A stretch of DNA of 64,000 nt from Candidatus Wildermuthbacteria bacterium. Lineage in GTDB: Bacteria; Patescibacteriota; Minisyncoccia; Minisyncoccales; UBA10102. Below the pieces are notes generated by a model that saw nothing but the letters and a program-made list of their open reading frames with translations, made no database searches and was not told the DNA's origin. The DNA lies in contig JACOZJ010000003.1 of the NCBI GenBank assembly GCA_016181405.1, positions 42,749 to 106,748 of the forward strand, given 5' to 3'. The position numbers and the translations under genes are program-made. Positions 8,777 to 57,178 of the stretch are shown here, in pieces; the first letter of the stretch is position 1, and each line of letters opens with the position of its first letter.

Positions 8777-8777
8777 T

Positions 8778-9191
8778 ATGTCACGTGTTTTACCCGAAAA
8801 AATCTCATATGTTGAAGCGGTAGGACGGCGCAAAACCTCCACTGCAAGAATTCGGCTTTCCTTGTCCGACAAACCGCAATTCGTGGTGAACGAAAAACCT
8901 CTTGAGGAATATGTGCAGGAGGCTGCGTATCAGACCATTGCTAGAGAATCTTTAGAGAAGGGGAGTCCGGGGAAGAGTTTTGCCGTGAGCGTACTCGTGT
9001 ATGGTGGAGGGCCTCATTCGCAGGCAGAAGCTATTCGTCAAGGGCTTGCGCGGGCGCTTGAAAAAATGGATCCAGAACTTCGGCCGAATTTGAAAACTCT
9101 TGGATTTCTCACGCGCGACTCCAGAATGCGCGAACGGAAAAAGTTCGGCCTCAAGCGCGCCAGAAGAGCGCGTCAGTGGAGAAAACGATAG
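8778..9191 (+). CDS. rpsI: 30S ribosomal protein S9
   Basis: ...AVGRRKTSTARIRL...GGGPHSQAEAIRQGLARAL...KKFGLKRARRARQWRKR; ATG at 8778. Confidence 0.93.
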   Translation: MSRVLPEKISYVEAVGRRKTSTARIRLSLSDKPQFVVNEKPLEEYVQEAAYQTIARESLEKGSPGKSFAVSVLVYGGGPHSQAEAIRQGLARALEKMDPELRPNLKTLGFLTRDSRMRERKKFGLKRARRARQWRKR

Positions 9192-9215
9192 TTTTCGACA
9201 TTATGCTGTTTCACT

Positions 9216-9242
9216 CCCGCCCCTTACGGGCGGGTTTGGTTT
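9216..9242. terminator. Hairpin cccgccc-cttac-gggcggg plus T-run between convergent rpsI and the PEGA gene
   Basis: Read directly from the sequence. It lies between two convergent stop codons. Confidence 0.6.
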
Positions 9243-10557: not shown

Positions 10558-10627
10558 TGCACCCATTATAAACACACACAAGCGCATTTGCAAAAAGGCT
10601 GGACTGCGGGTATAATAAGGCATTCGT

Positions 10628-11911: not shown

Positions 11912-11920
11912 CTGAAAGTT

Positions 11921-12928: not shown

Positions 12929-12943
12929 TTTTGCAAAACACAA

Positions 12944-13681
12944 ATGGTTCAAAATCCACAAGTGGATAAGCAATCATTGTTAAAGAGATTAGCCGAACGG
13001 GGAGGACTATCGCATGCGTATCTGTTCTCTGGGAACGATGAAAAGCAGAAAGACGCATTGGTAGCAGATCTCGTCGCATCGCTTCACATTCATGCAGAAG
13101 ACCGCATTATTCTTGAACCGGTTCAAGACGAAATCACTATTGTACAGATACGCGAACTCTCTTCGTTTTTCAGTATGACTGCGTGGAACTCCACGCATAA
13201 AGTTGCGCTTCTCCGCCATGTGCATACCATGAATCGAGAAGCGCAGTCGGCCTTCCTAAAGCTTTTGGAAGAACCGAAAGGGGATGCTATATTTTTTTTG
13301 CTTACTGAGTATCCAGATATGCTTTTTGACACTATCCGTTCTCGCGCGCAAGAATTTAAGTTTTACTCATTCGTTCCGCCTGAGGTTTTCGACGATACGA
13401 TTGGTGAACTCCAGAAACTTCAGAAGGCAGATCTCGGCACGCGTTTTGGCTATGCCAAAAAACTTGCTGACGAGCCAGAACGTATTCAGCATCTTTTGCA
13501 TCAATGGTTGCTCGCAATTCGACAGATGCTTCGTACACAACTTGAGAAAAATCCTCAAGATGTCCCCGCGACAGTGCGGGCAATCCGAACTATTCAGGAA
13601 ACCCTTCTGCTTTTGCGGACTACCAATGTCAGTCCACGTCTCGCTCTAGAGCGCGTTATGCTTAACCTCGCGGCAAATTGA
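12944..13681 (+). CDS. holB: DNA polymerase III delta-prime-like clamp-loader subunit
   Basis: ...LSHAYLFSGNDEKQKDAL...NREAQSAFLKLLEEP... are AAA+ clamp-loader motifs. Confidence 0.7.
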   Translation: MVQNPQVDKQSLLKRLAERGGLSHAYLFSGNDEKQKDALVADLVASLHIHAEDRIILEPVQDEITIVQIRELSSFFSMTAWNSTHKVALLRHVHTMNREAQSAFLKLLEEPKGDAIFFLLTEYPDMLFDTIRSRAQEFKFYSFVPPEVFDDTIGELQKLQKADLGTRFGYAKKLADEPERIQHLLHQWLLAIRQMLRTQLEKNPQDVPATVRAIRTIQETLLLLRTTNVSPRLALERVMLNLAAN

Positions 13682-13721
13682 TAGCCTCGACACAGAAGAA
13701 GGACTTTGATACAATGCGGAT

Positions 13722-14279
13722 ATGTATCAAGAGATTCTCCAGACAGTGAAGCCAGAGATGGAGAAAGCCCTAGGTTTTTTTCAGGGTGAGCTGGGGAAAA
13801 TCCGGACCGGGCAAGCAACTCCTTCCTTGGTAGAAGACGTGCAGGTAAACCTGTTTGGCCAAAAGATGCCTTTGAAGCAGTTGGCGGGAATTTCTTGTCC
13901 CGACCGCCGCCAGATTCTTATCCAGCCGTGGGATAAGTCCTATGTGGAATCTATTGAAAAGGCATTGCATGCAGCGTCTTTGGGGACAAGTCCGGTGGTA
14001 GAAGGGGCTACGGTTCGTGTGCACTTGCCTCAACTCACACAGGAATATCGTGAGCAGCTAGCCAAGCTGCTTGGGGAGAAAGCGGAAGAAGCAAAAAAGA
14101 CTATCCGCAGGTGGCGGGAGAGCGCATGGGAAGAAATTCAGGAAAAAGCAAAAGAAGGTGAAGTTCGCGAAGACGATAAGTTTCGTGCGAAAGATGAGCT
14201 GCAGAAGCTCATAGACGAATATAATAAAAAAATTGAGGAGCTGGTAGAGAGGAAAAAACAGGAAATTGAAGTAGTATGA
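13722..14279 (+). CDS. frr: Ribosome recycling factor
   Basis: 185 aa; ...GKIRTGQATPSLVEDVQVNLFGQKMPLKQLAGIS... Confidence 0.93.
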   Translation: MYQEILQTVKPEMEKALGFFQGELGKIRTGQATPSLVEDVQVNLFGQKMPLKQLAGISCPDRRQILIQPWDKSYVESIEKALHAASLGTSPVVEGATVRVHLPQLTQEYREQLAKLLGEKAEEAKKTIRRWRESAWEEIQEKAKEGEVREDDKFRAKDELQKLIDEYNKKIEELVERKKQEIEVV

Positions 14280-15343
14280 CAATTTTTATTGCGCTTCTAT
14301 CCATTGGTATTTTAGTCATCCTGCATGAGCTAGGGCATTTTTTTGCCGCCAAAAAATTCGGAATAAAAGTGGAGGAATTTGGGATTGGCTTGCCTCCGCG
14401 CCTTTTCGGAAAAAAGTACGGGGAAACCATATATTCTGTAAATGCTTTGCCCATAGGAGGGTTTGTGCGCATGGAGGGCGAAGAAAAACGGAGTGACAGT
14501 CCCGACAGTTTCAGCAAAAAGCCTCTCTGGCAGCGATTTTGCGTGGTAGCAGCTGGCGTAGTGGTGTTTTGGGTTGTTGCGGTTGTCATCTTCACTCTTT
14601 TGGGCGCGACTACTGGGATTCCCACCGCACTGAATGATGAGCAAGAAGATGTGATAAATCCGCACGTGCGGGTTATCGGGATTGCGGCCGATTCTCCCGC
14701 TGCTTCTGCGGGTTTGAAAATAGGAGATACAATTACGTATGTTGCCGGCCAGGCGGTTTCCACCGTGCGCGAAGTACAGGAACTTTCTGCCGCACACACC
14801 GGAGAAGAAGTTTTGCTCAATGTTCAACGGGGTGAAAAAACTCTTGAATTATCGCTTGTCCCCCGGGAAACGCCGCCTGCAGGCGAGGGACCTATTGGGA
14901 TAGCGCTCACGAGGGCGGGTTTTGTACGATATGCATGGTATGAAGCTCCTTGGCAGGGATTGGTGCGAACGTGGCATATCACAACCTCTATTTTTGCGAC
15001 GTTTGGTACGCTTATTTCTCAAGTTACGGGTGGGAAAGGGCTTCCTGCTGGGACTCAAGTTTCGGGGCCGGTGGGAGTTGTTGATTTGCTCAAAAATTCT
15101 CTTGCGCTCGGCGTATCTTCATTTCTTAGTTTCGTGGCGATAATCTCGGTCTACCTTGCAATCTTTAATACGCTGCCGATTCCGGCTCTTGACGGGGGGA
15201 GAATGTTCTTTTTGCTGCTCGAGGGGATACGCAGGAAACCCCTTTCTGAAAAACTTGAACAGCGGCTAATTCTTATTTCGTTTTTGGTTCTTATACCGTT
15301 TATCCTTTGGGTTACGGTAAACGATATTCGCCGGCTATTTTAG
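14276..15343 (+). CDS. rseP: RIP metalloprotease RseP (M50 site-2 protease with PDZ)
   Basis: HELGHFFAAKKFGIKVEEFGIGLPP plus the C-terminal NTLPIPALDGG motif. Confidence 0.9.
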   Translation: MTIFIALLSIGILVILHELGHFFAAKKFGIKVEEFGIGLPPRLFGKKYGETIYSVNALPIGGFVRMEGEEKRSDSPDSFSKKPLWQRFCVVAAGVVVFWVVAVVIFTLLGATTGIPTALNDEQEDVINPHVRVIGIAADSPAASAGLKIGDTITYVAGQAVSTVREVQELSAAHTGEEVLLNVQRGEKTLELSLVPRETPPAGEGPIGIALTRAGFVRYAWYEAPWQGLVRTWHITTSIFATFGTLISQVTGGKGLPAGTQVSGPVGVVDLLKNSLALGVSSFLSFVAIISVYLAIFNTLPIPALDGGRMFFLLLEGIRRKPLSEKLEQRLILISFLVLIPFILWVTVNDIRRLF

Positions 15344-15350
15344 TTGTACT

Positions 15351-16595
15351 ATGCGCCAGTCCCAACTTTTTACCAAAACGCAAAAAACGCTTCCGAAAGG
15401 CGAGGAAAGCAAAAATGCCCAGCTTTTAATTCAGGCTGGGTTTATTCACAAAGAAATGGCAGGGGTGTACTCGTACTTGCCACTTGGACTTCGGGTTCTT
15501 AAAAACATAGAGCAAATTATTCGGGAAGAGATGAATGCTATTGGTGGGCAAGAGTTGCTCTTAACCGGGCTTCAAAATCCTGAAATATGGCAAACATCGG
15601 GCCGTTGGGCAGACGAGGCTGTGGACATATGGTTTAAAACAAAGTTAAAAAACGATACGGAAATTGGGTTAAGCTGGACGCACGAAGAGCCTTTAACCGC
15701 GCTTATGCGCAACCATATTTCTTCGTACCGGGATCTGCCAGTGTACGTGTACCAAATGCAAACAAAGTTTCGGAACGAGTTGCGCGCGAAAAGCGGTATT
15801 ATGCGCACGCGCGAATTTATTATGAAAGACTTGTACTCGTTTTGCAAAAATGAAGAAGAGCACAAGGCATTTTATGAAAAGGCAAAGCAAGCATACATAA
15901 AAATATTCGATCACGTTGGCTTGGGGCATGTAACCTATGTTACCATGGCTTCTGGCGGAAGTTTTGCGAAATACTCGCACGAGTTTCAAACGCTAACCGA
16001 GGCAGGTGAAGACATTATTTACATAGACGAACAAACGAAGGAGGCGGTGAACGAAGAAATAATAGACGACAAAGATTTGGGATACGACAAAAACAAGCTG
16101 CGAAAAGAAAAGGCGGTAGAGGTGGGAAATATTTTTACCCTGGGAACTAAATACTCGGAAGTGCTCGGTTTGCAGTATCAAGACGATCAAGGAAATAAAC
16201 GGCCCGTGTTTATGGGCAGTTACGGAATTGGTCCGGCTCGCGTTATGGGTACAATTGCCGAGTTATTCGCCGACGAGAAAGGTCTTGTGTGGCCTTCGTC
16301 AGTAGCGCCTTTCCTCACCCATTTACTTTGTTTGTCGGATTCAACGGAAGAAGCCGACGCGTTGTATGAGCAGTTGCAAAGTGTGGGGATTGAGGTATTG
16401 TATGATGATAGGCACGGCATGAGCGCAGGCGAAAAATTTGCCGATGCCGATTTAATCGGCATTCCCTGGCGCCTTGTTATAAGCGACAAAACACTTGCGT
16501 CAAAAAGCGTGGAAGTGAAAGCACGGCAAAGTAAAGAGATTAAGCTTGTGTCGTTGCGAGAACTGCCAAGCTATCTGCATTCGAAAATTTCTTGA
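15351..16595 (+). CDS. proS: Prolyl-tRNA synthetase, compact form without the INS editing domain
   Basis: MRQSQLFTKTQKTLPK...AGFIHKEMAGVYSYLPLG...FRNELRAKSGIMRTREF... Confidence 0.88.
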   Translation: MRQSQLFTKTQKTLPKGEESKNAQLLIQAGFIHKEMAGVYSYLPLGLRVLKNIEQIIREEMNAIGGQELLLTGLQNPEIWQTSGRWADEAVDIWFKTKLKNDTEIGLSWTHEEPLTALMRNHISSYRDLPVYVYQMQTKFRNELRAKSGIMRTREFIMKDLYSFCKNEEEHKAFYEKAKQAYIKIFDHVGLGHVTYVTMASGGSFAKYSHEFQTLTEAGEDIIYIDEQTKEAVNEEIIDDKDLGYDKNKLRKEKAVEVGNIFTLGTKYSEVLGLQYQDDQGNKRPVFMGSYGIGPARVMGTIAELFADEKGLVWPSSVAPFLTHLLCLSDSTEEADALYEQLQSVGIEVLYDDRHGMSAGEKFADADLIGIPWRLVISDKTLASKSVEVKARQSKEIKLVSLRELPSYLHSKIS

Positions 16596-42685: not shown

Positions 42686-44287
42686 TTAATGGATTTCCTC
42701 TTTTTTCTCGCGAAGGAAACTTCGCCATTGCTCCAAGAATTCTACGAACATCTGGAATGGCGCTTCAATAAGGAAATTGAGTACGAGGACAAGCACATTG
42801 TACCGAACTATCTGCCCTGAAAGCCATCGCCCAACCTGAATCATGGGCAAAGAGAAAATGTCAAACACGTTGTACAGAAACCCCTCTTTAACAGATTCTA
42901 CCATTAGTTCGCGCGCCTGCTGGCGAATTTTGGTTCCGGCAAAAAGCACAAGTGACATAAACATCAAGAAGATAAGCATAGAAAAAGGTGAAAATTCGAG
43001 TTTTTGCAAAATCCATATGAGTGCGCCAAAAGAAATGATAAAACTGAAAAGATAAAACACATAAACTGTGCTCGCCCCAAGTCCGGCTCGTTTGCGTGGC
43101 GGAAAAATGTTATGCGGTTCTTGACTGCCGCGCACCTGAATAATCTTTACGACTTCCATCATCACGCGCTCAAAATTGCGTTGCGTGCTTGTCCGCACAG
43201 TGGTAACCAAACCAAACAGTACAATAGCAGGAACCGCAACGCTCAAACCAATCGCAAGATAATTAAGCTCCGCCTGCAAATATCGATCCACTGGGATTTC
43301 AATTGCGAGCGCAATGAGTATTTTTGTGATAAATATTGATAAAATACTGTAAAAAGCCGCCCGGCCAATACGCCTTCGCAATCTCGCATGGCGCTTATCA
43401 TACGCGTGTCGAATGGCCTCTTCCAAAGCAGGGGGATCATTCGCGAGCTGTTCGAAACGGTCTGTATCGTCACTTAGTATATCGTGTAAAATAAGATAAG
43501 GAGTATCGTATTTCTCCGCAAGCTGGTAAAAACGCTCGCCATACGGGTGGGAAATGATTTTCTCAACATTCTCGCGCAAAGTATCAAGATTCTCCGCGAC
43601 ATAAGTAAGCGTTTCCTGTGATGGAGTTTTCCAATCCGGATAAAACTTTTCGAGGATATGGTAAGCAATGCTAAAATTATCGAGTTTAAACAATGTCTTC
43701 TGCACGGCCACATAAATCTGCAGCCTCTTTTCGCCTTCCTCGAGCGGCCTTTCAAGATCGCGTTTCCGGGCAACCAGATTTATGCTTTTCTCCAAGTCTT
43801 CGGTCATTAACTCGATAAGGGCGCGCTCACGCCGCGGGGCAGAAAGCGCCTCTTCAATTTCCACCGCGGCTATGGAAAGAATCCAATCGGCAGAATTCCT
43901 CCCTCCATTCTGCTGTCCATTTCGCGAATGCTCAGCAATAAATATGTATTTCTCGATAACGGCCTGAATCTCGTCAACCTGCTTAAATGAAATCCTCTTG
44001 TTTGGGAAATGTCCTCCGCGCACAAGCTCGGCAAGAAAATTCTCTGCAAAGCCTTCGCTTACCTTATGTATAGCAAGCCGGCGTTTGAGAATACGTTCAA
44101 TTGCGGTCTTCCGAAGCAAGTGTTCGGCTCTCCAATCCACGATTTCCCGAAGCTTTTCATAAAATAAAGCTACGCGCGCCACGACCTCATCCACAGAGAT
44201 TACCTCCTCTTCTTGCCGAATTTGAGCCCTTTCTTTCCACAATTCATATTCTGCAATAAGTTTTTGTACGCCCGGAGAAATTACCAT
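42686..44287 (-). CDS. Hypothetical integral membrane protein (helical N-terminal domain, about 5 C-terminal TM helices)
   Basis: 533-aa ORF overlapping the thrS stop by 7 nt. No motif that I can name. Confidence 0.6.
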   Translation of the reverse strand: MVISPGVQKLIAEYELWKERAQIRQEEEVISVDEVVARVALFYEKLREIVDWRAEHLLRKTAIERILKRRLAIHKVSEGFAENFLAELVRGGHFPNKRISFKQVDEIQAVIEKYIFIAEHSRNGQQNGGRNSADWILSIAAVEIEEALSAPRRERALIELMTEDLEKSINLVARKRDLERPLEEGEKRLQIYVAVQKTLFKLDNFSIAYHILEKFYPDWKTPSQETLTYVAENLDTLRENVEKIISHPYGERFYQLAEKYDTPYLILHDILSDDTDRFEQLANDPPALEEAIRHAYDKRHARLRRRIGRAAFYSILSIFITKILIALAIEIPVDRYLQAELNYLAIGLSVAVPAIVLFGLVTTVRTSTQRNFERVMMEVVKIIQVRGSQEPHNIFPPRKRAGLGASTVYVFYLFSFIISFGALIWILQKLEFSPFSMLIFLMFMSLVLFAGTKIRQQARELMVESVKEGFLYNVFDIFSLPMIQVGRWLSGQIVRYNVLVLVLNFLIEAPFQMFVEFLEQWRSFLREKKEEIH

Positions 44288-46086: not shown

Positions 46087-46260
46087 AGCCAATTGACTAG
46101 TTATACCACAAAACAAAAACCCCCTCAACAGGGAAGTACCCCAAGCGCTTAAGCCACGGAAAAGTTTGACTTTTTATCGGTAGCGTGTTAGTGTATCGCC
46201 AGCACTTGCTGGTGGGAAAACCCTTAAATTGTATAGCCAGCAAGAAGGAAGGTGGTTCCG

Positions 46261-46545
46261 ATGTCAAAGAAATTCCTGGTAATCTTGGCGCTCGTAGCCG
46301 TCCTGGCGGCCGTATTGGTTCTTCCAGGACAGGGAGCCGACGCACGGCAGAAGCGTTCGGCCTTCCAGGTGACCTCGGTAGGGATACAGCGCTCTGACAC
46401 GGGCACATGGCTAGAGAGCCACGTTGATCTGAATGTGCTGTCCATCCGGATACGGCCGGCCGCAAACCAGGATGGAGTCGCGGTCACTATCGTAGACACG
46501 TCGGGAAACGTCGTCTACGACGGAACGCCAGGCACCAAGAACTAG
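46261..46545 (+). CDS. Hypothetical small secreted protein (94 aa)
   Basis: AGGAAGGTGG SD; MSKKFLVILALVAVLAAVLVLPGQGA is a signal-like N-terminus. Confidence 0.65.
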   Translation: MSKKFLVILALVAVLAAVLVLPGQGADARQKRSAFQVTSVGIQRSDTGTWLESHVDLNVLSIRIRPAANQDGVAVTIVDTSGNVVYDGTPGTKN

Positions 46546-46584
46546 CTCCAGCGCCCTGTAGTAGAAGCACCTAATACCCAGAAA

Positions 46585-46829
46585 CGGGCAGGGCAGGCGA
46601 CGAGAAGTCCAAACCTTCTTTCGCCTGCTCACTCTCATTGAGTGCATCAAGGAATTGGTGGATTCAACAGGAGTTCCAGTACTTTTAAATACACATCCGC
46701 CGCTTCATAGCGGCGAAACGGACATTACCGCAGAAACGCTTAAAACAATTGATTGAAAGAAGTGAAAACGAGTAGTAGTGTTCGTCTCGCCGCTATGGAG
46801 CAGGCAATCTCTCTAAGGAGAAGACATCT
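46585..46829 (+). promoter_or_regulatory. Structured intergenic RNA module, copy 1
   Basis: Stem-loop 46585-46628. Local GCCGC-TTCATA-GCGGC hairpin. CATAGCGGCGA (46706-16) is complementary to TCGCCGCTATG (46787-97). Homologous to the copies at 54346 and 55091. Confidence 0.6.
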
Positions 46830-46871
46830 ATGGAGAACAAATTTGTGGATTTTTATAGAAACAAAACCTGA
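46830..46871 (+). CDS. Possible 13-aa micro-ORF (MENKFVDFYRNKT) downstream of module copy 1
   Basis: AAGGAG SD 8 nt upstream. The stop lies inside the terminator stem. It may not be translated. Confidence 0.25.
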   Translation: MENKFVDFYRNKT

Positions 46872-46893
46872 CAGTTGCTGTCAGGTTTTGTTT
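46863..46893. terminator. Bidirectional terminator aaaacctgacag-ttg-ctgtcaggtttt shared with dnaE
   Basis: Perfect 12-bp stem flanked by A-run and T-run. Confidence 0.75.
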
Positions 46894-49595
46894 TAGGAGG
46901 CTACGATTTCCTCGACTTCTTCGGCGAGGAATTTTTTTTCGCCGTCGCGGCTATCGAGACGACCAGTTACAAACACCATTTTATTTTCTTGCAGAGCGGT
47001 CGGATAGCGCTCGATAACCGAAGGAAACACCACAACCTCGATACGATCGGTTAAATCCTCCAAGGCAACAAAAAGCATGGGTTTGCCACTTTTGGTAATA
47101 ATTCTTTTCACCGAAGAAATAATACCTCCAATGCGCAAGCGCTCGCGTTGCCGGCTAAACTGAAACTTGTATCGCGTATTTTGAATCTCCTGCACCGCCT
47201 CTTGCAGCGAACGGATCGCCAGCGCCCTACTTTCCAAAATGTTTTTGATCGCTTTCAAAGGATGAGAAGTTACATATAATCCCAGCAATTCCTTTTCCCA
47301 TAGCAAAAGCTCTGACTCTTTTGCGGGTTCTGTAGCTTCCAGCACGAGTGAAGAGTGATTCTGTTCTGCCGGCTGGCTGTCGAACAAGCCTTTTTGCCCG
47401 TTGGCTTTTGTTTTCTGATTTTCACGCGCAACGGTAAGCAATCGCTCCATGTTTTTTAGGAGCTGGTTACGCTCGCCGAACTGATCGAATACGCCGGCTT
47501 TTACCATGCTTTCCATCGATTTCTTGTTCAAATCTTTTGTTGCCACGCGGGTCACAAAATTTTGAATCGCCAGATAAGGGCCATCTGCCTTACGTTCTTG
47601 AATAATAGACGCCACAATCCCTTCGCCCACGTTTTTGATGGCCAATAGCCCAAAGCGAATCTGATTTTTTGCCGGCACGGCAGAAAAAAAGGCGAAGCTC
47701 TCGTTTACGTCGGGAGGCAACACTTCAATACCCATTTTTCGCGTTTCCTCAATCAAGAACGCGATGCGTTCAACATCGTTGCGTTCCGAAGTTAGAAGAG
47801 CAGACATATATTCCAAAGGATAGTTCGCTTTAAGCCACGCGGTTTGGTAGGCGATGGTGGCGTAGCACGCCGCATGGCTCCTATTGAAACCATAGCTCGC
47901 GAAAGGCTCAATAAAATCAAAAACACTCTCCGCGATTTTCTTTGAAGTTCCAGCTGCGACTGCTCTCTCCACAAATTTTACTTTTTGCTCCTCTAAGAGC
48001 GTCTTTATTTTTTTCCCAATGGCCTTGCGGAGAATGTCTGCCTCTCCATAGGAAAATCCGGCGAGTTCACGCGCTATCTGCAGAATTTGTTCCTGGTACA
48101 CGGCAATCCCATACGTATTGCGTAAAATGGGTTCTAGTTTTGGATGCAAATACCGAATTTCTTTTTCTCCATGCTTGCGGGCAATATAGTCGGGTATAAG
48201 TTCCATCGGACCTGGCCGATAGAGCGCAACCATGGCAATAATGTCTTCAAACTCGGTTGGCTTCAATTCTTTTAAGTATCTTCTCATCCCGCCGCTTTCC
48301 AGTTGGAACACCCCGGTTGTATCGCCCGCCTGCAAAAGCTTGTACACTTTTGGATCATTCAAAGGGATAGTATCGATATCAATATTTTTGCCGCGAATGG
48401 CGTATATGCGCTTGAGTGTTTCTTCAATAATGCTCAAGTTTTTCAGCCCCAAAAAATCCATTTTTAAAAGGCCGATGTCTTCCACGCTGTGCATTTCGTA
48501 TTGGGTAACTATCGCCTCATCGTTTTGCGTGGGGTGCTGCAAAGGCACGCGCGTATCCAAGGGTTCTGCCGCAATCACCACCCCGCAAGCGTGCGTGGAA
48601 GCGTGCCGCGCGACACCCTCGAGCTTTTTGCCCAAATCAATTAAACGTTTGGCTTTTTCATCTTCCTCGTATAGAGCTTTGAATTCATCCACTTGCTCCA
48701 ATGCTTCCTCGAGCGAAGAACCAAAGGGAATCAGTTTTGCCGCGCGGTCACAGTATCCATACTCATATTCGAGCGCGCGCCCTACATCGCGTATCACGGC
48801 GCGCGAGGCCATTGTTCCAAATGTAATAATTTGCGCCACGCGATCCCGCCCGTATTTTTGAGCCACGTATTCTATAACTTCGTCGCGCCTTGTGTCTGCA
48901 AAATCCAAATCAATGTCCGGCAGAGAAACGCGTTCTGGATTCAAAAATCGCTCGAACAAAAGTTTATAGCGAATAGGATCAACGTTTGTAATCTTGAGCA
49001 AGTACGCCGCGATAGATCCAGCGGCAGATCCGCGGCCCGGCCCCACCACAATGCGGTTTTGCTTTGCCCAGTTCACAAAATCCTGCACAATTAAGAAGTA
49101 GGCGGCAAATCCGGTTTGGAGAATCACGTCGAGCTCATATTCCAGCCGTTTTACAGCATCTCCCGAATCGGTGTATTGCGGCTTTTCCTTCAACCCCTCG
49201 TAGCAAAGTTCGCGGAGATATGCGTCGGCAGTTTTCCCTTCAGGAAGAGGAAATTTGGGCAAAAGATTTTTCCCAAGTACAAGCTCCAGATTGCAGGCTT
49301 CGGCTATGACTTGCGTATTTGTTAAAGCTTCTGGAACATCTTTGAAAAGCTCTGCCATTTCTTCTGCGCTTTTTAACGAGAAATCATCATGCTTGAGCGT
49401 CAGGCGTTCCTCATCGCTATTCTTCGCCCCGGTATTAATAAGCATTAAAATATCCTGTGCTTCTGCGTCATCTTTTCGCAGATAGTGCGAATCGGCGGTT
49501 GCCACCAACGGAATACCAGTACGCTTGGAAATTGCAATCAATTCTTTGTTTACTGTTTCTTGTTCTTTGATATTCGGATGATTCTGCAGCTCCAA
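46893..49595 (-). CDS. dnaE: DNA polymerase III alpha subunit, main body (from ...YLELQNHP onward)
   Basis: ...ELQNHPNIKEQETVNKELIAISKRTGIPLVATADSHYL...PGPMELIPDY... In this frame the homology extends upstream to IFGKGNYY, but the only in-frame start is a TTG. Confidence 0.85.
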   Translation of the reverse strand: MELQNHPNIKEQETVNKELIAISKRTGIPLVATADSHYLRKDDAEAQDILMLINTGAKNSDEERLTLKHDDFSLKSAEEMAELFKDVPEALTNTQVIAEACNLELVLGKNLLPKFPLPEGKTADAYLRELCYEGLKEKPQYTDSGDAVKRLEYELDVILQTGFAAYFLIVQDFVNWAKQNRIVVGPGRGSAAGSIAAYLLKITNVDPIRYKLLFERFLNPERVSLPDIDLDFADTRRDEVIEYVAQKYGRDRVAQIITFGTMASRAVIRDVGRALEYEYGYCDRAAKLIPFGSSLEEALEQVDEFKALYEEDEKAKRLIDLGKKLEGVARHASTHACGVVIAAEPLDTRVPLQHPTQNDEAIVTQYEMHSVEDIGLLKMDFLGLKNLSIIEETLKRIYAIRGKNIDIDTIPLNDPKVYKLLQAGDTTGVFQLESGGMRRYLKELKPTEFEDIIAMVALYRPGPMELIPDYIARKHGEKEIRYLHPKLEPILRNTYGIAVYQEQILQIARELAGFSYGEADILRKAIGKKIKTLLEEQKVKFVERAVAAGTSKKIAESVFDFIEPFASYGFNRSHAACYATIAYQTAWLKANYPLEYMSALLTSERNDVERIAFLIEETRKMGIEVLPPDVNESFAFFSAVPAKNQIRFGLLAIKNVGEGIVASIIQERKADGPYLAIQNFVTRVATKDLNKKSMESMVKAGVFDQFGERNQLLKNMERLLTVARENQKTKANGQKGLFDSQPAEQNHSSLVLEATEPAKESELLLWEKELLGLYVTSHPLKAIKNILESRALAIRSLQEAVQEIQNTRYKFQFSRQRERLRIGGIISSVKRIITKSGKPMLFVALEDLTDRIEVVVFPSVIERYPTALQENKMVFVTGRLDSRDGEKKFLAEEVEEIVAS

Positions 49596-49972
49596 ATAAT
49601 AATTCCCTTTGCCGAATATATGTAATAGAAACCGTCCAGGTGGGCGCGAGTTAAGAGTTTTACGATATTTTGATATCCCTTTTCGTTTTTAGCTAGAAGA
49701 ATCAAATGGTAAATTGTGTCGTCCACGCCTGGACGCTTGTCTGCCATACTTTCAAACGCCAAATAAATTTCGCATCCCAAAATAGGTTTAATGCCTTTTG
49801 CTTTCGCTTTTTTGTAGAACTCCACCGCGCCATAGAGGTTGCCGTGATCGGTTAGAGCCACCGAGTTCATGGTAAGCTCCTGCACCCTATCCAAAAGCTG
49901 GTCTATTTTCGGCAGACCATCGAGAAGCGAGTAGTGAGAATGGACGTGTAAGTGAGTAAAGCTTTGCCCCAT
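49550..49972 (-). pseudogene. dnaE: dnaE N-terminal PHP-domain fragment in a different frame (frameshift plus internal deletion relative to intact DnaE)
   Basis: MGQSFTHLHVHSHYSLLDG...LLAKNEKGYQNIVKLLTRAHLDGFYY, then out-of-frame junk. It overlaps the main ORF by 46 nt. Confidence 0.7.
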
Positions 49973-50011
49973 AGGTATGTATAATTCTATCTCGTTTGGT
50001 ACAATATCTCA

Positions 50012-50614
50012 ATGCAGAAAATTATCGTTGGCATAGATGAAGCTGGTCGAGGCCCTCTTGCGGGCCCGGTGGTGGCAGCAGCGTTTTGCGTGGTGGGAAA
50101 ACCGAAATTTCGGGCGATAGGGGATTTCGACTCCAAAAAACTCACACCCCAATGGCGGGAAGATTTATATCAAGTTTTTACCTCTCATCCGCAAATAGAA
50201 TGGGGGATAGGGCAAGTTTCAGAAAAACAAATAGACAAGATAAACATTCTCCAGGCAACCCGCCTTGCCATGAAAAAGGCGTTTTACGGGTTGTTTCGAA
50301 AACTGCAAAACAAGGGAGTAACACCAAATCTTCTCATTGTGGATGGAACATCTCTTCTTGATATTCCCATATCCCAAAAAGCGATTCCGAAGGCAGATGC
50401 CACGATATTTCCATGTATGGCGGCTTCCATTATTGCCAAAGTTACCCGCGACCGCCTTATGCTCAAACTTCACGAAAGATATCCTGTCTATGGCTTTGAT
50501 CGTCATAAAGGATATGGAACCAAATTTCATCTACAAGCGCTGGCGCGATTTGGACCCTGTACAATCCATAGAAAAAGCTTTTCACCAATCTCCGATGTCT
50601 TAAAATCCAAATGA
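50012..50614 (+). CDS. rnhB: Ribonuclease HII
   Basis: ...VGIDEAGRGPLAGPVVAAA...DSKKLT... Confidence 0.92.
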   Translation: MQKIIVGIDEAGRGPLAGPVVAAAFCVVGKPKFRAIGDFDSKKLTPQWREDLYQVFTSHPQIEWGIGQVSEKQIDKINILQATRLAMKKAFYGLFRKLQNKGVTPNLLIVDGTSLLDIPISQKAIPKADATIFPCMAASIIAKVTRDRLMLKLHERYPVYGFDRHKGYGTKFHLQALARFGPCTIHRKSFSPISDVLKSK

Positions 50615-50700
50615 CAAAATCCAAATTCCAAAATAAATTACAAATACAAATATATAAATTCAAAACCTGTTTTGGATTTTGAGCTTTGAGTTTTGGATTT
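50602..50700. repeat. Repeat family B, intergenic imperfect inverted pair (aaaatccaaa...aaatccaaa / tttggattttgagctttgagttttggattt) around an AT-rich core
   Basis: Read directly from the sequence. The left arm overlaps the rnhB stop codon. Confidence 0.7.
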
Positions 50701-52241: not shown

Positions 52242-52706
52242 ATGTTAACAATTCGTTTATTTCGCGTAGGAAGGAAAAATCAGCCGGCGTTTAAGATTGT
52301 CGTCTGCAATAAGCAAAACGCCGCTTCAAGGGGACGCTTCGTGGAGGAAGTGGGTTTTTACGATCCCTTAACTAAACAGCGCAACCTAAAAGGGGATAGG
52401 GTAAAATACTGGTTATCCGTAGGCGCAAAAGCTTCTCCCACGGTTCACAATATGCTTGTGACAGATAAAGTGGTGGAAGGCTCCAAAATCGCCAAACACA
52501 AACTCTCCAAGAAGCCTGCCTCGCCAGCAGGGGAGTCTGTAGCGTCTGAAACAAACCAAAGCGGGAAGTCAGCCGATACGGCCCCGGAAGCACCAAAAGC
52601 CCAGGAATCAGCTCCACAAAGCGCTCCTGCTCAAGAAACCACCCCTGAAGCGCCAAAACCCGCTGAAGAGCCTAAGCCTGCCGAAACGCAGGAAAAACAG
52701 CCTTAA
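52242..52706 (+). CDS. rpsP: 30S ribosomal protein S16 with a Pro/Ala/Glu-rich C-terminal extension
   Basis: MLTIRLFRVGRKNQPAFKIVVCNKQNAASRGRFVEEVGFYDP... Confidence 0.93.
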   Translation: MLTIRLFRVGRKNQPAFKIVVCNKQNAASRGRFVEEVGFYDPLTKQRNLKGDRVKYWLSVGAKASPTVHNMLVTDKVVEGSKIAKHKLSKKPASPAGESVASETNQSGKSADTAPEAPKAQESAPQSAPAQETTPEAPKPAEEPKPAETQEKQP

Positions 52707-52770
52707 AGCTCAAACTCCTCAATTCTTGTCCCGCCGTAGCTTTAAGCCAAGGCGGATAGCCTTATACACT

Positions 52771-52795
52771 CCCACCAACCCTTTGGTGGGTTCTT
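52771..52795 (+). terminator. rpsP terminator cccacca-accctt-tggtggg plus TTCTT
   Basis: 7-bp GC stem followed by a short T-run. Confidence 0.5.
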
Positions 52796-52822
52796 GACAT
52801 TTTTGGGGAAGTATGCTATACT
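52794..52822 (+). promoter_or_regulatory. Consensus promoter TTGACA-N17-TATACT
   Basis: Perfect -35 element, 5 of 6 in the -10 element, 17-nt spacer. Confidence 0.65.
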
Positions 52823-53164
52823 GTGGCTAACAATAAAATACTGGTTTTGCGGGTGGAAGGAGAGAGCCACCGGCAAATAATAAAGACACAGACGATTGCA
52901 CATATCACAATTACCCAATCAGCTCTCCCCAAAAGGAGAGTTGGTTGTTTAGAGAATGTCCTGCCTCTGCGAATATAAAGATACTCCCGGAGGTAGCACA
53001 TTCAAAACATCACAGCACCTTAACCATCAAGCAAGGGGGAAGAGGAACAGAAAATTCTTCCCCCATACCCTTCAGCCCACCACGAGTATCGAATGGCGAA
53101 TTGAAGGGTAACGATAGCACCCAAAAATTTCCTTCCTGTAAAGGGAAGGGGAAAGGAGAGAGCC

Positions 53165-53275
53165 ATGGTGCACCGACCTCCACGCCCGGAGACGGTGATG
53201 ACGCTTCCGCTGCCGCGTTGCGGCTGCGGGGCACGCATCGCCCCGGGTGGCTACTGTACTGGAAAGTGCAAGTAG
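53165..53275 (+). CDS. Cys-rich micro-protein (36 aa: MVHRPPRPETVMTLPLPRCGCGARIAPGGYCTGKCK)
   Basis: Translated by hand. GGAAAGGAGAGAG SD 3 nt upstream. CxC...CxxxC pattern. Confidence 0.45.
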   Translation: MVHRPPRPETVMTLPLPRCGCGARIAPGGYCTGKCK

Positions 53276-53283
53276 CCCTCAAC

Positions 53284-53388
53284 GGAGTCGGAGGAAAAGC
53301 ACTCATTGATTGCACTCATAGCATACTCTCCGACTCCTTAAGTTTAAGACCGTTGCGAAAAGCGCAGATCATAGATTTAAGGAGTCGG
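53284..53388 (+). promoter_or_regulatory. Three-segment alternative-hairpin element (1:2 versus 2:3)
   Basis: ggagtcggag (53284-93) pairs with ctccgactcc (53328-37). ccgactccttaa (53330-41) pairs with ttaaggagtcgg (53377-88). The two pairings are mutually exclusive. Confidence 0.5.
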
Positions 53389-53420
53389 ATAGATTGCGCA
53401 CCTTATGAAAGGAGGACGCC

Positions 53421-53606
53421 ATGGAAAGGCTCAATCAATCCCAAATCCGGGCCGCCCATTGGAAGATTGGAGTGAGGGGACCCGTAAACGGGTTACTCAC
53501 TCCAAGGAAACTCGCCCGGGTTTACGGAGTTAGTCCGAGCGAGACAAGAATCATCGTGTTGTCGGTATTCGTGTACCGCGCGCGGGAATGGCTTTGCCCC
53601 CGATGA
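53421..53606 (+). CDS. Small putative helix-turn-helix protein (61 aa)
   Basis: AAAGGAGG SD; ...LTPRKLARVYGVSPSETRIIV... looks like an HTH. Confidence 0.5.
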   Translation: MERLNQSQIRAAHWKIGVRGPVNGLLTPRKLARVYGVSPSETRIIVLSVFVYRAREWLCPR

Positions 53607-53872
53607 GAGCGTGCACAATCCCAGCAACCAAGCCCTGGCCCTGCGAGATCTACCAAGATTTCGCAGGGCACCCCAACTGAATCCCGAATTCATTTCGAGA
53701 TTCAACAGGGGTTAGTACATAAAAATCCATTCGTCTTCAGCGATTTGGCCAAGGCACTTGACTGAATCGTTGGAGACGAGAAGTATGGTGAGATGCGATT
53801 CGTCGAAGACCTCTTCTTGAGTGTCGAAGAACGACAAAGAAAACTCACGAAGAGTGCCAAGAAAGGCAGAAA

Positions 53873-54307
53873 ATGTCTATGTCTATACCGACGATGCTGG
53901 CGGGGCTGGCGGGGCTGGTGGTAGCGGGGATGCTGGTGGGGATGCTGATCTCCATCATCGTATGGACGGATCGGCGCCCGTCGTTCAAGACCGTGTTTGG
54001 TTTCAAGCCTCAGAACCGCAAGAGGCCTTGGTCGTCAGCGCTTCGTGCAGCGGAACAGAAAAAGGTGGCTACTGTGCTGAGTCGGTTAGCACAGACCTTT
54101 GCCACGTGCGACAAGACCGAGAGGGAGATGAAGATTGAACTCCCTGCGGATGGGGAGTTCGAGAAATGGCATACGGAACAGCGTAAACGCCTCGCGGATT
54201 TGAGGCGGGAGCTGAAAACCGCGAAGGAAGGTTTCTGGCGGGCCTATGCGCTCGCCGAGAAACAGGAATTCAGTGTACAGCGGAAGTACACTGACTACCT
54301 CCCCTAG
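53873..54307 (+). CDS. Hypothetical membrane-anchored protein (N-terminal TM helix, charged coiled C-terminus)
   Basis: MSMSIPTMLAGLAGLVVAGMLVGMLISIIVW... Preferred over the overlapping 53821-54138 frame. Confidence 0.55.
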   Translation: MSMSIPTMLAGLAGLVVAGMLVGMLISIIVWTDRRPSFKTVFGFKPQNRKRPWSSALRAAEQKKVATVLSRLAQTFATCDKTEREMKIELPADGEFEKWHTEQRKRLADLRRELKTAKEGFWRAYALAEKQEFSVQRKYTDYLP

Positions 54308-54345
54308 CGCGACCACTAAGTAGAAGGATGCGTCTCACCACGCAT

Positions 54346-54578
54346 TCTGGGCGGGAGAACAAAGGTTCAATCCCTTTCTCTCCCGCCCCCATACTTGAGC
54401 TCATGAATAAGTTCGTGGGCTGAAGAGTGGATAGCACTTTCAAAACTACAGCCGCTTCATAGCGGCGAAATGCCCTTCCGTAGCTTTATGCGAAGGAGGA
54501 CAGCTCGCTGCTATGGAAAGCGGCCTTCCGTAAACCCTCACCCTCAGCAAAAGGAGAGGTAGGAAGAGGAGAACAAGA
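54346..54578 (+). promoter_or_regulatory. Structured intergenic RNA module, copy 2
   Basis: Stem-loop 54346-54389 with a TTCAATC loop followed by CCA. GATAGCACTTTCAAAAC box. CATAGCGGCGA (54458-68) pairs with TCGCTGCTATG (54505-15). Confidence 0.6.
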
Positions 54579-54962
54579 ATGACCATGAAATCTTTCGCGG
54601 CATTGGACTGGACGTTTTCAGGCCCGGCGCGCCGGGTTACTCTCGAGTTCCCGTGCGAGACCCCTGAGGAGGCGCGGGTCCTCCTGCGGGCGGAGCATGA
54701 GGCCCGCAAGGACAAGGCATTGGAGGAAATCAAGGCCCATCCCCGCATGAAGCAGATTGGATGGGCAGGGGATCACGTCACTCCGGTAATGGGGCCCGTG
54801 CCCCCTTGGGAGGATTCCCGGTACCCAGGGTCCCTCTGCGTCGGCATCCCCAACGTGGATGCCGAGGTCGGGGTCCAAGTCGGATCCGGGATGGGAGAGA
54901 CGGACCGGATATACCGCATTGAGGCGGTGCCGGGGGGCGGCACGCGCGCCGTGCGTGTCTGA
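54579..54962 (+). CDS. Hypothetical protein (127 aa)
   Basis: GGAAGAGGAG SD; no recognisable motif. Confidence 0.55.
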   Translation: MTMKSFAALDWTFSGPARRVTLEFPCETPEEARVLLRAEHEARKDKALEEIKAHPRMKQIGWAGDHVTPVMGPVPPWEDSRYPGSLCVGIPNVDAEVGVQVGSGMGETDRIYRIEAVPGGGTRAVRV

Positions 54963-55090
54963 CGCAAGAGAAGACCAGGCTGGGGGTGAAGCCGGCCAAA
55001 AAGAATAGTTTCCCAGTATCATGAAACTGGGGGCGCTGACCACGGCGCCATACAGCAGTGGGAGGTCGTTCTGCCCGAGGCGGAAGGACC

Positions 55091-55366
55091 TAAGGCGAGA
55101 GAGGAAGGTTAATCCCTTTCTCTCCCGCCCCATACTTGAGCTCATGAATAAATTCGTGGGCTGAAGAGTGGATAGCACTTTCAAAACCACAGCTGCTTCA
55201 TAGCGGCGAAATGAACATTTCCGTCTCATCGACGGATATGCCGACGAGGCATAAACCAGAAACGCTCAAGATGCATGAAAGAAATGATTTGGAGTGGAAA
55301 ACAGAGTTAGTGTTCAGCTCGCTGCTATAAAGTGGCAAATCTTGAGCCTGAGAGCAGGAGGAGAAC
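55091..55366 (+). promoter_or_regulatory. Structured intergenic RNA module, copy 3
   Basis: The first ~120 nt are about 95% identical to copy 2. ATAGCGGCGA (55200-09) pairs with TCGCTGCTAT (55319-28). The insert shares blocks with copy 1. Confidence 0.6.
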
Positions 55367-55561
55367 ATGAAAAAAAACGCCTTGTCGACGATCTTCCTAG
55401 TCGGTTTTTCCCTCGTGGGCGCTTTCGGGGGCGCCCTCGGAGGGGTCAGTGTCAGCGCTCTCATTGGTATTAACCCAAACACTGCCGCCCTATGGGGCGG
55501 TATCGTCGGTGCCATCGCTATGACGGCGGTGGCGGTCCTCAGCATCAATAGGTGGAAATAA
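55367..55561 (+). CDS. Glycine-zipper small hydrophobic protein (64 aa)
   Basis: GGAGGAG SD; ...LVGAFGGALGGVSVSALIG...LWGGIVGAIAMTAVAVL... Confidence 0.65.
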   Translation: MKKNALSTIFLVGFSLVGAFGGALGGVSVSALIGINPNTAALWGGIVGAIAMTAVAVLSINRWK

Positions 55562-55591
55562 AACGCAAGGAGATAACCTTTCGTGCAATAA

Positions 55592-55640
55592 GGTAGGGAG
55601 GCGAACGGTTCTATTCCGCTTCCTCCCTACCACTTTCTTG
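55592..55640 (+). terminator. Stem-loop ggtagggagg..cgg-ttctatt-ccg..cctccctacc, same architecture as the module stem-loops
   Basis: 10-bp stem, internal loop, 3 bp and a 7-nt loop, followed by ACTTTCTT. Confidence 0.5.
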
Positions 55641-55731
55641 CGTACAGCTGTGATCTACTCTCTCCTCCGCCTCACCGGCGGATCCATCATAGCTGTACAC
55701 AAGAGAGAAATACTTTTCCACTTCTCAAATA

Positions 55732-55759
55732 TTGACAGGATGGCACGCAGTGCTAGACT
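55732..55759 (+). promoter_or_regulatory. Promoter TTGACA-N16-TAGACT (TG immediately upstream of the -10 region)
   Basis: Read directly from the sequence. The track ORF 55732-55935 begins at the TTG of this -35 box. Confidence 0.55.
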
Positions 55760-55944
55760 ATCCTAATTTCACAGCATGCACCCTCGAACGTGATGCGGAA
55801 ATGGGGGATGGATTGGCAAGGAGTATTGATTCTTTGGCAATCCCGTCCCTGTTTCGTACCACAATTCAGCGGCAGGGAGGAGAGGAGGTACAACTTGAAA
55901 GTCTAAAATACAAATCAACGCGTTCTTTTTCATAAACGAGGAGG

Positions 55945-56097
55945 ATGACGATGCAATCGAATAGAGGGAGAATCCGGGGATGCCTGGGTCAGACCTATGC
56001 CTCTCCGATTCAGCCGAAGCGCTTTCGGCCGCAGCGCCCCCGCGCGTCGCATCGCCGGAAGCCCATCGTCAAGATCATCCTGATCTCCAACACGTAA
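55945..56097 (+). CDS. Highly basic 50-aa protein (MTMQSNRGRIRGCLGQTYASPIQPKRFRPQRPRASHRRKPIVKIILISNT)
   Basis: Translated by hand. GAGGAGG SD. An 11-bp stem hairpin follows at 56121-56157. Confidence 0.45.
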   Translation: MTMQSNRGRIRGCLGQTYASPIQPKRFRPQRPRASHRRKPIVKIILISNT

Positions 56098-56172
56098 CCT
56101 CGTTGGCGCCCGATAACCCCAACAACCCCTCGGATTGTGGTACATCCGAGGGGTTCATCATTTGTGTGGGGG

Positions 56173-56200
56173 TTGACACTATTTTTTGATCGTGTATACT
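56173..56200 (+). promoter_or_regulatory. Consensus promoter TTGACA-N16-TATACT
   Basis: Read directly from the sequence. Confidence 0.6.
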
Positions 56201-56206
56201 CAATCG

Positions 56207-56342
56207 TACATAAATATGAACTCACGCTATCTTTTCTGCATGTGTCTTTGTGCCAGCCCAGAGAAGAGTCTGCGTGTTTCGCGTTAAGACATTTTGTTAT
56301 TTGAAACCAGCCAGCCTCTTCTCTTCAGGGGCTGGTTTTTTG
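56207..56342 (+). ncRNA. Candidate ~135-nt sRNA bracketed by a consensus promoter and a strong terminator (contains an SD-less 23-codon ORF)
   Basis: Promoter at 56173-56200. Terminator aaccagcc...ggctggtt plus TTTTT at 56305-56342. Confidence 0.4.
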
Positions 56343-56419
56343 TAGCTTGGCAGAGACTCAAAACCCATTGTGCGTCTCTGCCAGGAAACAATCCTGGAAT
56401 ACAGAAAGGAGAAAGGGAA

Positions 56420-56740
56420 ATGGCCAGAATAATAGGAGTGTTTGAAGGCCCAACTTCCCTACAGGAAGTCTTCGGCAGAAACGTGCCGAACAGAAGGTCT
56501 TTTGAATCGTACGAAGACCTTCTCAAAGCCCTCAAGGAGGGGCTGCTTGACGGCATCGTCATACCGGAGAATCTCGTCAGCAGAACTTTCGTGGCAGCGC
56601 AAATGGGGTTGATACAGTGCGTGCGTGGATTCGCGTATATCAAGCCGTCGCTCGAGATACGGGTCCGCCGCGCGCGAAGCCGCATGCACGAACGCCGCGC
56701 TTGGCGAGAGTATACGCCGCCCCGGCGCCTTCCCTGTTAA
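56420..56740 (+). CDS. Hypothetical 106-aa protein resembling the N-terminal part of a prephenate-dehydratase or periplasmic-binding-protein type-2 fold (fragment?)
   Basis: AAAGGAGAAAGGG SD; MARIIGVFEGPTSLQEVF...SFESYEDLLKALKEGLLDGIVIPENLVS... Confidence 0.45.
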   Translation: MARIIGVFEGPTSLQEVFGRNVPNRRSFESYEDLLKALKEGLLDGIVIPENLVSRTFVAAQMGLIQCVRGFAYIKPSLEIRVRRARSRMHERRAWREYTPPRRLPC

Positions 56741-56759
56741 CCTGCACCTTACAACGTAG

Positions 56760-56792
56760 AAGCCCCGCCTTTATGGCAGGGGCTTTCTTTTT
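56760..56792 (+). terminator. Intrinsic terminator aagccccgcc-tttat-ggcaggggctt plus TTCTTTTT
   Basis: GC stem with one bulged A, followed by a T-run. Confidence 0.65.
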
Positions 56793-56796
56793 GGGG

Positions 56797-56825
56797 TTGA
56801 CAAACCCGAGAGACAGAAATAACAT
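56797..56825 (+). promoter_or_regulatory. Promoter TTGACA-N17-TAACAT upstream of khpA
   Basis: Read directly from the sequence. Confidence 0.5.
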
Positions 56826-56869
56826 AAAGAAAAGTCGAATAGCAGAAAGTTACAGAATTCAGAATTCAA

Positions 56870-57178
56870 ATGGCAGAAGAGACACCTCAGTACCAAGCAT
56901 TGCTCGAGTATATCGTGAAATCCTTGGTGGACAATCCGAACGACGTAACGGTAGAACGCAAAGTAGATGAAATGGGCGTACTGCTTTCTTTGAAAGTGCA
57001 CGCTCAAGACATGGGTCAAATAGTCGGCCGACAGGGTTCTACCGCGCGAGCAATTCGCACATTGGTTCGCATCGCGGGCCTCAAAGCTCACGCACGGGTA
57101 AACCTCAAGATTGAAGAGCCAGAAGGCGGCCGCGGCCCCCGAAAGAGCGAAGAACCTCTTGCGGGGTTGAACATCTAA
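56870..57178 (+). CDS. khpA: KH-domain RNA-binding protein (KhpA/YlqC, UPF0109)
   Basis: ...LLEYIVKSLVDNPNDVTVERKVDEMGVLLSLKVHAQDMGQIVGRQGSTARAIRTLV... Confidence 0.88.
   Translation: MAEETPQYQALLEYIVKSLVDNPNDVTVERKVDEMGVLLSLKVHAQDMGQIVGRQGSTARAIRTLVRIAGLKAHARVNLKIEEPEGGRGPRKSEEPLAGLNI

What the first reader, a model, noticed from the sequence alone, without database searches (positions are those of the whole stretch)
49550..49972. dnaE is broken: a -1 frame change plus loss of about 55-70 codons inside the PHP domain
The frame starting at 49972 encodes a normal PHP N-terminus up to ...RAHLDGFYY (ending near 49622) and then runs into junk and a stop at 49550. The main 900-aa frame shows homology from ...IFGKGNYYLELQNHP, beginning at about 49618. 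The two homologous stretches abut (ttc tat tac | at ata ttc ggc) but sit in different frames. The junction has no slippery heptamer. In DnaE proteins I know (E. coli, T. aquaticus), roughly 55-70 residues separate GFY.KPR from IFG..NFYLE(L/I)Q; this stretch includes the ...LSGC..GE... segment and is missing here. Possible explanations are an assembly or consensus error, a decaying gene with another replicase elsewhere, a two-polypeptide PHP/polymerase, or removal of an intervening element.
Basis: partly seen in the sequence, partly recalled or inferred. Interest (0 to 1): 0.55.

Follow-up and report, generated by a model that had tools for sequence, protein, structure and literature searches.

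The report
Assembly hole in dnaE gene
The replicative DNA polymerase gene looks broken only because this assembly lacks 142 bases that three independent assemblies of the very same strain contain, so it is almost certainly an assembly error and not biology.

Summary
On the minus strand, dnaE reads normally from ATG 49972 to Tyr117 (49622). It then runs out of frame to a stop at 49550, and homology resumes in another frame at 49619 and continues to 46893. The organism is a Patescibacteria (Wildermuthbacteria-like) bacterium.

Three per-run Logan assemblies (SRR12113430, SRR12113383, SRR12113420) decide the case. They are 100% identical to the window on both sides of the junction (8,011 + 1,020 nt in the longest). 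Each carries the same extra 142 nt between window positions 49620 and 49621, which restores an intact 1,073-aa DnaE. A further 14.4-kb same-strain contig matches the window without any gap. The missing piece encodes a PHP-domain segment, including the Cys equivalent to Taq C145 (metal ligand 7). This segment is present at full length (48 aa) in 127 of 128 homologs and at 41 aa in the other. The junction has no repeats, microhomology, hairpin or slippery site, and the broken ORFs are on record nowhere.

Best explanation: a local assembly or scaffolding error (about 0.85). A genuine, very recent deletion allele cannot be excluded without reads (about 0.1). Interest is low.

The parts
49622..49972 (-). 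dnaE 5' part, codons 1-117 (M1..Y117), frame A. It encodes the first ~60% of the PHP domain, including the residues aligned to Taq metal ligands 1-6.
   Evidence: translation. (Pfam PHP, profile positions 1-102 of 164). (tblastn, P0001 residues 1-117, 90.6% identity). (aligned to Taq Pol III alpha 6-122).
49620..49621 (-). Junction. 142 nt are missing between these two bases. 49621 is the first base of codon 118 (A of AAG) and 49620 is the last base of codon 165 (T of GCT).
   Evidence: L009, L010 and L011 match the window at 100% up to 49620 and again from 49621, and each carries an identical 142-nt insert. One search shows a gap of the same length and position against relatives L001, L003 and L006.
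49550..49621 (-). Out-of-frame read-through of frame A: 23 junk codons (IYSAKGIIIWSCRIIRISKNKKQ) and stop TAA at 49552-49550. It has no function and is a consequence of the missing 142 nt.
46893..49619 (-). dnaE 3' part, codons 166-1073 plus stop, frame B. It holds the end of the PHP domain, the polymerase core (DNA_pol3_alpha), fingers, HhH and OB domains.
   Evidence: translation. (Pfam PF07733, PF17657, PF14579, PF01336). (tblastn, P0001 residues 166-1073, 96% identity). (Taq and E. coli Pol III alpha).
50012..50614 (+). rnhB (RNase HII), the divergent neighbour. It is not part of the defect. It served as the exact-match anchor that located same-strain contigs.
   Evidence: the exact protein was found on three Logan contigs; Pfam PF01351.

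Best explanation
The window carries an in-silico defect: a local assembly or scaffolding error that dropped 142 bp from an otherwise intact, single-copy, essential dnaE gene of a Patescibacteria (Wildermuthbacteria-like) groundwater bacterium. In the organism the gene is one uninterrupted 1,073-codon ORF encoding a canonical DnaE with a complete nine-ligand PHP domain.

Shown: the window lacks 142 nt. The same strain has them in three independent assemblies. The restored gene is intact.

Inferred: the loss arose during assembly, scaffolding or curation of the window's source and not in the cell.
For: 1. Same strain, intact gene. Logan contigs L009 (SRR12113430), L010 (SRR12113383) and L011 (SRR12113420) are 100% identical to the window over 8,011+1,020, 2,519+1,010 and 143+1,011 nt. 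All three carry the identical 142 nt between 49620 and 49621. Translating L009 gives a 1,073-aa DnaE with no stop and a full PHP match, profile 1-164 of 164.
2. The rest of the window agrees with the per-run assemblies. L012 (14,408 nt) equals window 1147-15554 with no mismatch or gap. The hole is therefore the only discrepancy in about 23.4 kb compared.
3. There is no sign of decay: zero substitutions relative to the intact allele anywhere else in dnaE.
4. The broken products (the 140-aa and 900-aa ORFs) are not on record in a collection of 153 billion gene positions that includes the Logan assemblies of these runs.
5. The lost segment is conserved core. 127 of 128 homologs have exactly 48 residues between FYY and (I/M)FG, and the other has 41. 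The segment aligns without gaps to Taq Pol III alpha 123-170, and its Cys139 corresponds to Taq C145, PHP metal ligand 7 (Barros et al. 2013, PMC3666897, Table 1).
6. No biological deletion signature is present: no microhomology at the ends, no flanking direct repeats, and no stable hairpin (z = -0.03).
7. The base rate favours an error. These SRR numbers fall in the range of the Modesto, CA agricultural-groundwater study. Its MAGs were assembled with MEGAHIT and then scaffolded with IDBA-UD (PMC7906910; link through SRR12113421). Chen et al. 2020 report that local assembly errors are common in such scaffolds, with 13 in one 1.13-Mb CPR genome (PMC7111523).
Against: No reads were available, so I could not directly show that no read supports the junction. 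The source record of the window was not identified. Neither the junction 36-mer nor an adjacent 37-mer flank occurs in the GTDB representatives or the JGI metagenomes, so I could not inspect the original scaffold, its Ns or its annotation. A blunt 142-nt loss without repeats is also not a textbook de Bruijn error. The link between the window and BioProject PRJNA640378 is inferred from neighbouring run numbers and was not looked up.
Confidence: 0.85

Rival explanations
1. A genuine, very recent 142-bp deletion allele of dnaE exists in the sampled population. It could be a dead-end mutant, a minority haplotype picked up by the assembler, or a defective genome copy complemented by intact copies. 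The assembler reported it faithfully.
For: The junction is clean, and the flanks are perfect matches to the strain. Assemblers do sometimes output minority paths. The window's own reads were not available to exclude this.
Against: Three of three independent run assemblies of the identical strain have the intact allele and pass through the site without a contig break. The broken ORFs are absent from all recorded assemblies. As far as general knowledge goes, dnaE is the only C-family replicase gene in this kind of genome, and no second copy lies in the window, so a fixed null allele would be lethal. There is no microhomology or repeat that would favour a spontaneous deletion. No additional mutations have accumulated.
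Confidence: 0.1
2. The arrangement is functional. Either DnaE is made as two polypeptides (an N-terminal PHP fragment plus the polymerase), or a programmed -1/+2 ribosomal frameshift yields a DnaE with a shortened PHP domain.
For: Only the abutting position of the two homologous stretches supports this. Barros et al. 2013 note that the loop carrying ligand 7 is absent in about 20% of PHP domains across bacteria.
Against: There is no slippery heptamer at TTC TAT TAC ATA TAT TCG. The first in-frame start for the second part (TTG 49595) has no separate history as a gene start. Forty-eight residues, not just a loop, would be missing, including a strand-helix unit of the barrel. None of 128 homologs, including 95-97% identical relatives, has this form. 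The identical strain has the normal single ORF.
Confidence: 0.02
3. The 142 bp is an intervening or mobile element (an intein- or intron-like insert, or a developmentally excised element) that has been removed here.
For: Some homologs in the search carry intein domains in dnaE (P0013, P0043 and P0058, with PF14890/PF14528), so dnaE in this clade can host inserts.
Against: The 142 nt is not a multiple of three. It encodes residues that align without gaps to Taq Pol III alpha 123-170 and are present in 127 of 128 homologs. It has no terminal repeats, no significant structure and no copy elsewhere in the window. Its removal breaks the gene instead of restoring it.
Confidence: 0.01

Closest known systems
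Local assembly or scaffolding errors in short-read metagenome-assembled genomes (as described by Chen et al. 2020, Genome Res 30:315, PMC7111523)
   Same: A short stretch of consensus is unsupported by independent assemblies of the same population. It breaks a protein-coding gene while the flanks are perfect. It occurs in a CPR genome from a pipeline (MEGAHIT + IDBA-UD scaffolding, if the source is PRJNA640378) for which such errors are reported as frequent.
   Different: The error type here is a blunt 142-nt omission without Ns or repeats.
DnaE1-type DNA polymerase III alpha subunit with a canonical metal-binding PHP domain (e.g. Thermus aquaticus Pol III alpha, PDB 2HPI)
   Same: The restored gene has the same domain order: PHP, polymerase core, fingers, HhH, OB. 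The full-length fused query matches 2hpi at E = 6e-262. The restored N-terminus aligns without gaps across the segment that is missing from the window.
   Different: In the window as given, the PHP domain is truncated at profile position 102 of 164, and the gene is split into two frames.
Split dnaE with a split intein (cyanobacterial dnaE-n / dnaE-c)
   Same: dnaE appears as two pieces.
   Different: No intein domains occur in either piece. The pieces are contiguous and are not at separate loci. The break lies in the PHP domain and removes conserved residues. The same strain has an unsplit gene.

Membership tests
DnaE (C-family replicative polymerase, Pol III alpha) | Polymerase core, fingers, HhH and OB domains in the canonical order | tested here: met
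   PF07733, PF17657, PF14579 and PF01336 in the 900-aa ORF. E = 6e-262 to Taq Pol III alpha.
DnaE (C-family replicative polymerase, Pol III alpha) | Complete N-terminal PHP domain in the same reading frame as the polymerase | tested here: not met
   In the window the PHP match stops at profile position 102 of 164 and the frame changes. In same-strain contig L009 the feature is met, with profile 1-164 in a single 1,073-aa ORF.
Local assembly error | Independent assemblies of the same population disagree with the consensus at that spot only | tested here: met
   three contigs from three runs carry 142 extra nt. There are no other differences in about 23.4 kb.
Local assembly error | No sequencing read supports the consensus across the junction | not testable with these tools
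As a proxy, products of the broken ORFs are absent from all recorded assemblies.
Pseudogene (genuine gene decay) | The lesion is present in the organism's DNA, usually with further substitutions or indels, and a functional substitute exists | tested here: inconclusive
   There are no further lesions and no second dnaE or polC in the window. The rest of the genome and the reads are not available.
Programmed ribosomal frameshift | Slippery site at the shift point, and conservation of the two-frame arrangement in relatives | tested here: not met
   There is no slippery heptamer. All 128 homologs are single-frame and contain the segment.
Intein, intron or excisable intervening element | The extra DNA is unrelated to the host gene, its removal restores the host gene, and element-specific domains or terminal repeats are present | tested here: not met
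   The 142 nt encodes conserved DnaE residues. Its absence breaks the frame. There are no repeats or significant structure.

The most novel reading that the evidence does not exclude
The 142-bp deletion is real in a subpopulation of this episymbiotic CPR bacterium. Under this reading, defective genomes lacking a functional replicase persist for a time, for example in cells with several chromosome copies, and were abundant enough in one sample to be assembled.
Probability: 0.08. Interest if true: 0.3.

Novelty: not a real feature. Interest (0 to 1): 0.04.

Why it matters
The value is mainly for data quality. Taken at face value, the window would suggest a CPR bacterium with a disrupted sole replicase, or an exotic split or frameshifted DnaE. 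The comparison shows that the gene is ordinary and intact in the organism. Anyone annotating this genome should restore the 142 nt and should not call a pseudogene or two ORFs. The case also shows that exact-match look-ups of neighbouring proteins in per-run assemblies can stand in for read mapping when reads are unavailable.

Tried and rejected
- I searched for the junction 36-mer in the GTDB species representatives and the JGI metagenome contigs and found nothing. This is uninformative, because an adjacent 37-mer common to both alleles is also absent there. The strain is simply not in those collections, so the source record was not identified.
- I looked up the broken 140-aa and 900-aa ORFs as exact products and found none on record. 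Two other window proteins (698 aa and 442 aa) were also not on record, probably because the true starts differ or contigs are lacking. This limits how much weight that negative can carry.
- I tested for a biological deletion mechanism. Folding the 142 nt with flanks as ssDNA gave z = -0.03. The repeat search found no direct repeats bracketing the segment. There is no microhomology at the ends. I noticed a 5-nt terminal complementarity (AGCCT...AGGCT), but it is not part of the predicted fold, and I regard it as chance.
- I checked whether the 142 nt had been moved elsewhere in the window. No 14-mer of it occurs on either strand.
- I considered a second replicase in the window. tblastn finds only the two dnaE pieces.
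- I noted that 142 = 141 + 1, where 141 is my recollection of MEGAHIT's default largest k; one search says only that default parameters were used. I could not derive a concrete mechanism that yields a k+1 omission, so this stays an untested lead and is not used as evidence.

Full report
**What is in the window.** dnaE lies on the minus strand. Frame A starts at ATG 49972 and encodes MGQSFTHLHVHSHYSLLDG...RAHLDGFYY, with Tyr117 at 49624-49622. It then reads 23 unrelated codons and stops at 49552-49550. A second frame carries IFGKGNYYLELQNHP... from 49619 down to the stop at 46895-46893.

Pfam matches the 140-aa ORF to the PHP profile at positions 1-102 of 164 only. It matches the 900-aa ORF to the Pol III alpha core, finger, HhH and OB domains. 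A fusion of the two homologous parts matches Thermus aquaticus Pol III alpha at E = 6e-262, but HMMER splits the alignment at the junction: Taq residues 6-122, then from about 162. The observation therefore stands. There is no slippery sequence at the junction (TTC TAT TAC ATA TAT TCG).

**Size and position of the loss.** The closest database relative is P0001 (Candidatus Wildermuthbacteria bacterium RIFCSPLOWO2_01, 1,073 aa, 91% identity). A DNA alignment with three contigs encoding it shows one gap of 142 columns in the window and no other indel in the coding region.

The lost DNA comprises:
- the last two bases of codon 118;
- codons 119-164;
- the first two bases of codon 165.

This affects residues 118-165, KPRVDEELLAQHADGLIALSACLAGKVSRAILAGKLAEAEKIALRYQA.

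**The decisive comparison.** I looked up the exact RNase HII protein encoded next to dnaE (50012-50614). The look-up returned three contigs from Logan per-run assemblies: L009 (SRR12113430, 9,173 nt), L010 (SRR12113383) and L011 (SRR12113420).

BLASTN shows each contig is 100% identical to the window on both sides of the junction: 8,011 + 1,020 nt, 2,519 + 1,010 nt and 143 + 1,011 nt. Each has 142 additional bases exactly between window positions 49620 and 49621. The three inserts are identical to one another. Translating L009 across the region gives an uninterrupted 1,073-aa DnaE, and its PHP domain now matches the full Pfam profile, 1-164 of 164.

A fourth same-strain contig, L012 (14,408 nt, SRR12113430), matches window 1147-15554 with no mismatch and no gap. 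In about 23.4 kb of same-strain comparison, the 142-nt hole is the only difference. Neither of the two broken ORFs is on record as a gene product in any assembly of the collection.

**What the missing piece is.** It is core DnaE sequence and not an insert. In an alignment of the N-termini of 128 homologs, 127 have exactly 48 residues between FYY and (I/M)FG and one has 41. None has the short form. All members of the 90% cluster around P0001 are intact in this region.

With the 142 nt restored, residues 4-309 align to Taq Pol III alpha 6-319 in one stretch, without gaps across the segment. Cys139 then corresponds to Taq Cys145. Barros et al. 2013 list Cys145 as ligand 7 of the nine PHP metal ligands: Taq H11, H13, D20, H47, E72, H95, C145, D212, H214 (PMC3666897, Table 1). 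By the same alignment, the other ligand positions carry H9, H11, D18, H43 and D207/H209 in this protein. The organism therefore appears to have a canonical metal-binding PHP domain. The deletion would remove one ligand and the surrounding secondary-structure elements.

**Mechanism of the loss.** No biological deletion signature is present:
- The bases flanking the segment give unique, blunt end points with no microhomology.
- No direct repeats bracket the segment.
- The segment with its flanks folds no better than shuffled sequence, z = -0.03.
- No 14-mer of the segment occurs elsewhere in the window.
- There are no further mutations in the gene relative to the intact allele, so there has been no time for decay.
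- The window holds no second dnaE or polC.

**Provenance (partly inferred).** A preprint (10.1101/2024.02.19.580942) cites run SRR12113421, numerically adjacent to the runs above, as source data of a genome from Modesto, California groundwater studied by He et al. 2021. That study assembled each filter separately with MEGAHIT at default parameters and scaffolded the contigs with the IDBA-UD scaffolder (PMC7906910).

Chen et al. [quoted passage not shown] They found 13 in one 1.13-Mb CPR genome (PMC7111523). At that rate, about one error per 64-kb window would be unsurprising.

I could not identify the window's source record. Neither the junction nor an adjacent flank is in the GTDB representatives or the JGI contigs. 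The missing length, 142, equals 141 + 1, where 141 is my recollection of MEGAHIT's default largest k. I could not turn this into a mechanism and do not count it as evidence.

**Verdict.** The break is real in the window but is almost certainly not real in the organism. It is most likely a local assembly or scaffolding omission (confidence about 0.85). A genuine, very recent deletion allele captured by the assembler remains possible (about 0.1) and can only be excluded with reads. Functional readings (two polypeptides, programmed frameshift, excised element) are contradicted by the tests above.

The gene itself is an ordinary DnaE1-type replicase of a Patescibacteria bacterium. Its neighbourhood (rnhB, dnaE, thrS, miaA and gatB) is syntenic with relatives. 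Interest is low. The practical consequence is to repair the sequence and not to annotate a pseudogene.

Noticed in passing
window 52707-56869: About 4.1 kb between rpsP (52242-52706, +) and the KH-domain gene (56870-57178, +) has only short ORFs. None of the three tested hits Pfam. GC is 0.50-0.63 against a window mean of 0.48, and there is no Rfam match (best E = 0.69). Relatives carry a variable island with an AbiEii gene next to rpsP. This could be a strain-specific island of small unknown genes or a non-coding region.
   Followed up: partly
window 49973-50011; L001 9155-9736: Relatives encoding P0001 have an Exo_endo_phos (endonuclease/exonuclease/phosphatase) gene between rnhB and dnaE. 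The window strain lacks it: the divergent rnhB and dnaE start codons are only 40 nt apart.
   Followed up: no
window 42686-44287 (-): A 533-aa ORF overlaps the end of thrS. It is conserved at the same length and position in all relatives (L001-L009) and has no Pfam match. It is a conserved unknown protein of this clade.
   Followed up: no
window 46129-46892, ORF 46261-46545 (+): The spacer between thrS and dnaE is GC-rich (0.53). It holds a 94-aa ORF with a hydrophobic N-terminus resembling a signal peptide (MSKKFLVILALVAVLAAVLVLPG...). The ORF has no Pfam match and the spacer has no Rfam match. Relatives have a 67- or 126-aa ORF called on the opposite strand at the same spot.
   Followed up: no
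window 50615-50700: All three Logan contigs that cross the dnaE junction end at 50630-50640. This lies in an A/T-rich low-complexity spacer after rnhB (aaatccaaattccaaaataaattacaaatacaaatatataaatt...), with TCCAAA/TTTGGA motifs in both orientations. It is probably just a point where k-mer assembly breaks.
   Followed up: partly
homologs P0013, P0043, P0058: Some related Patescibacteria DnaE proteins are 1,415-1,497 aa long and carry intein domains (PF14890, PF14528). Intein-containing dnaE genes therefore exist in this clade, although not in this window.
   Followed up: no
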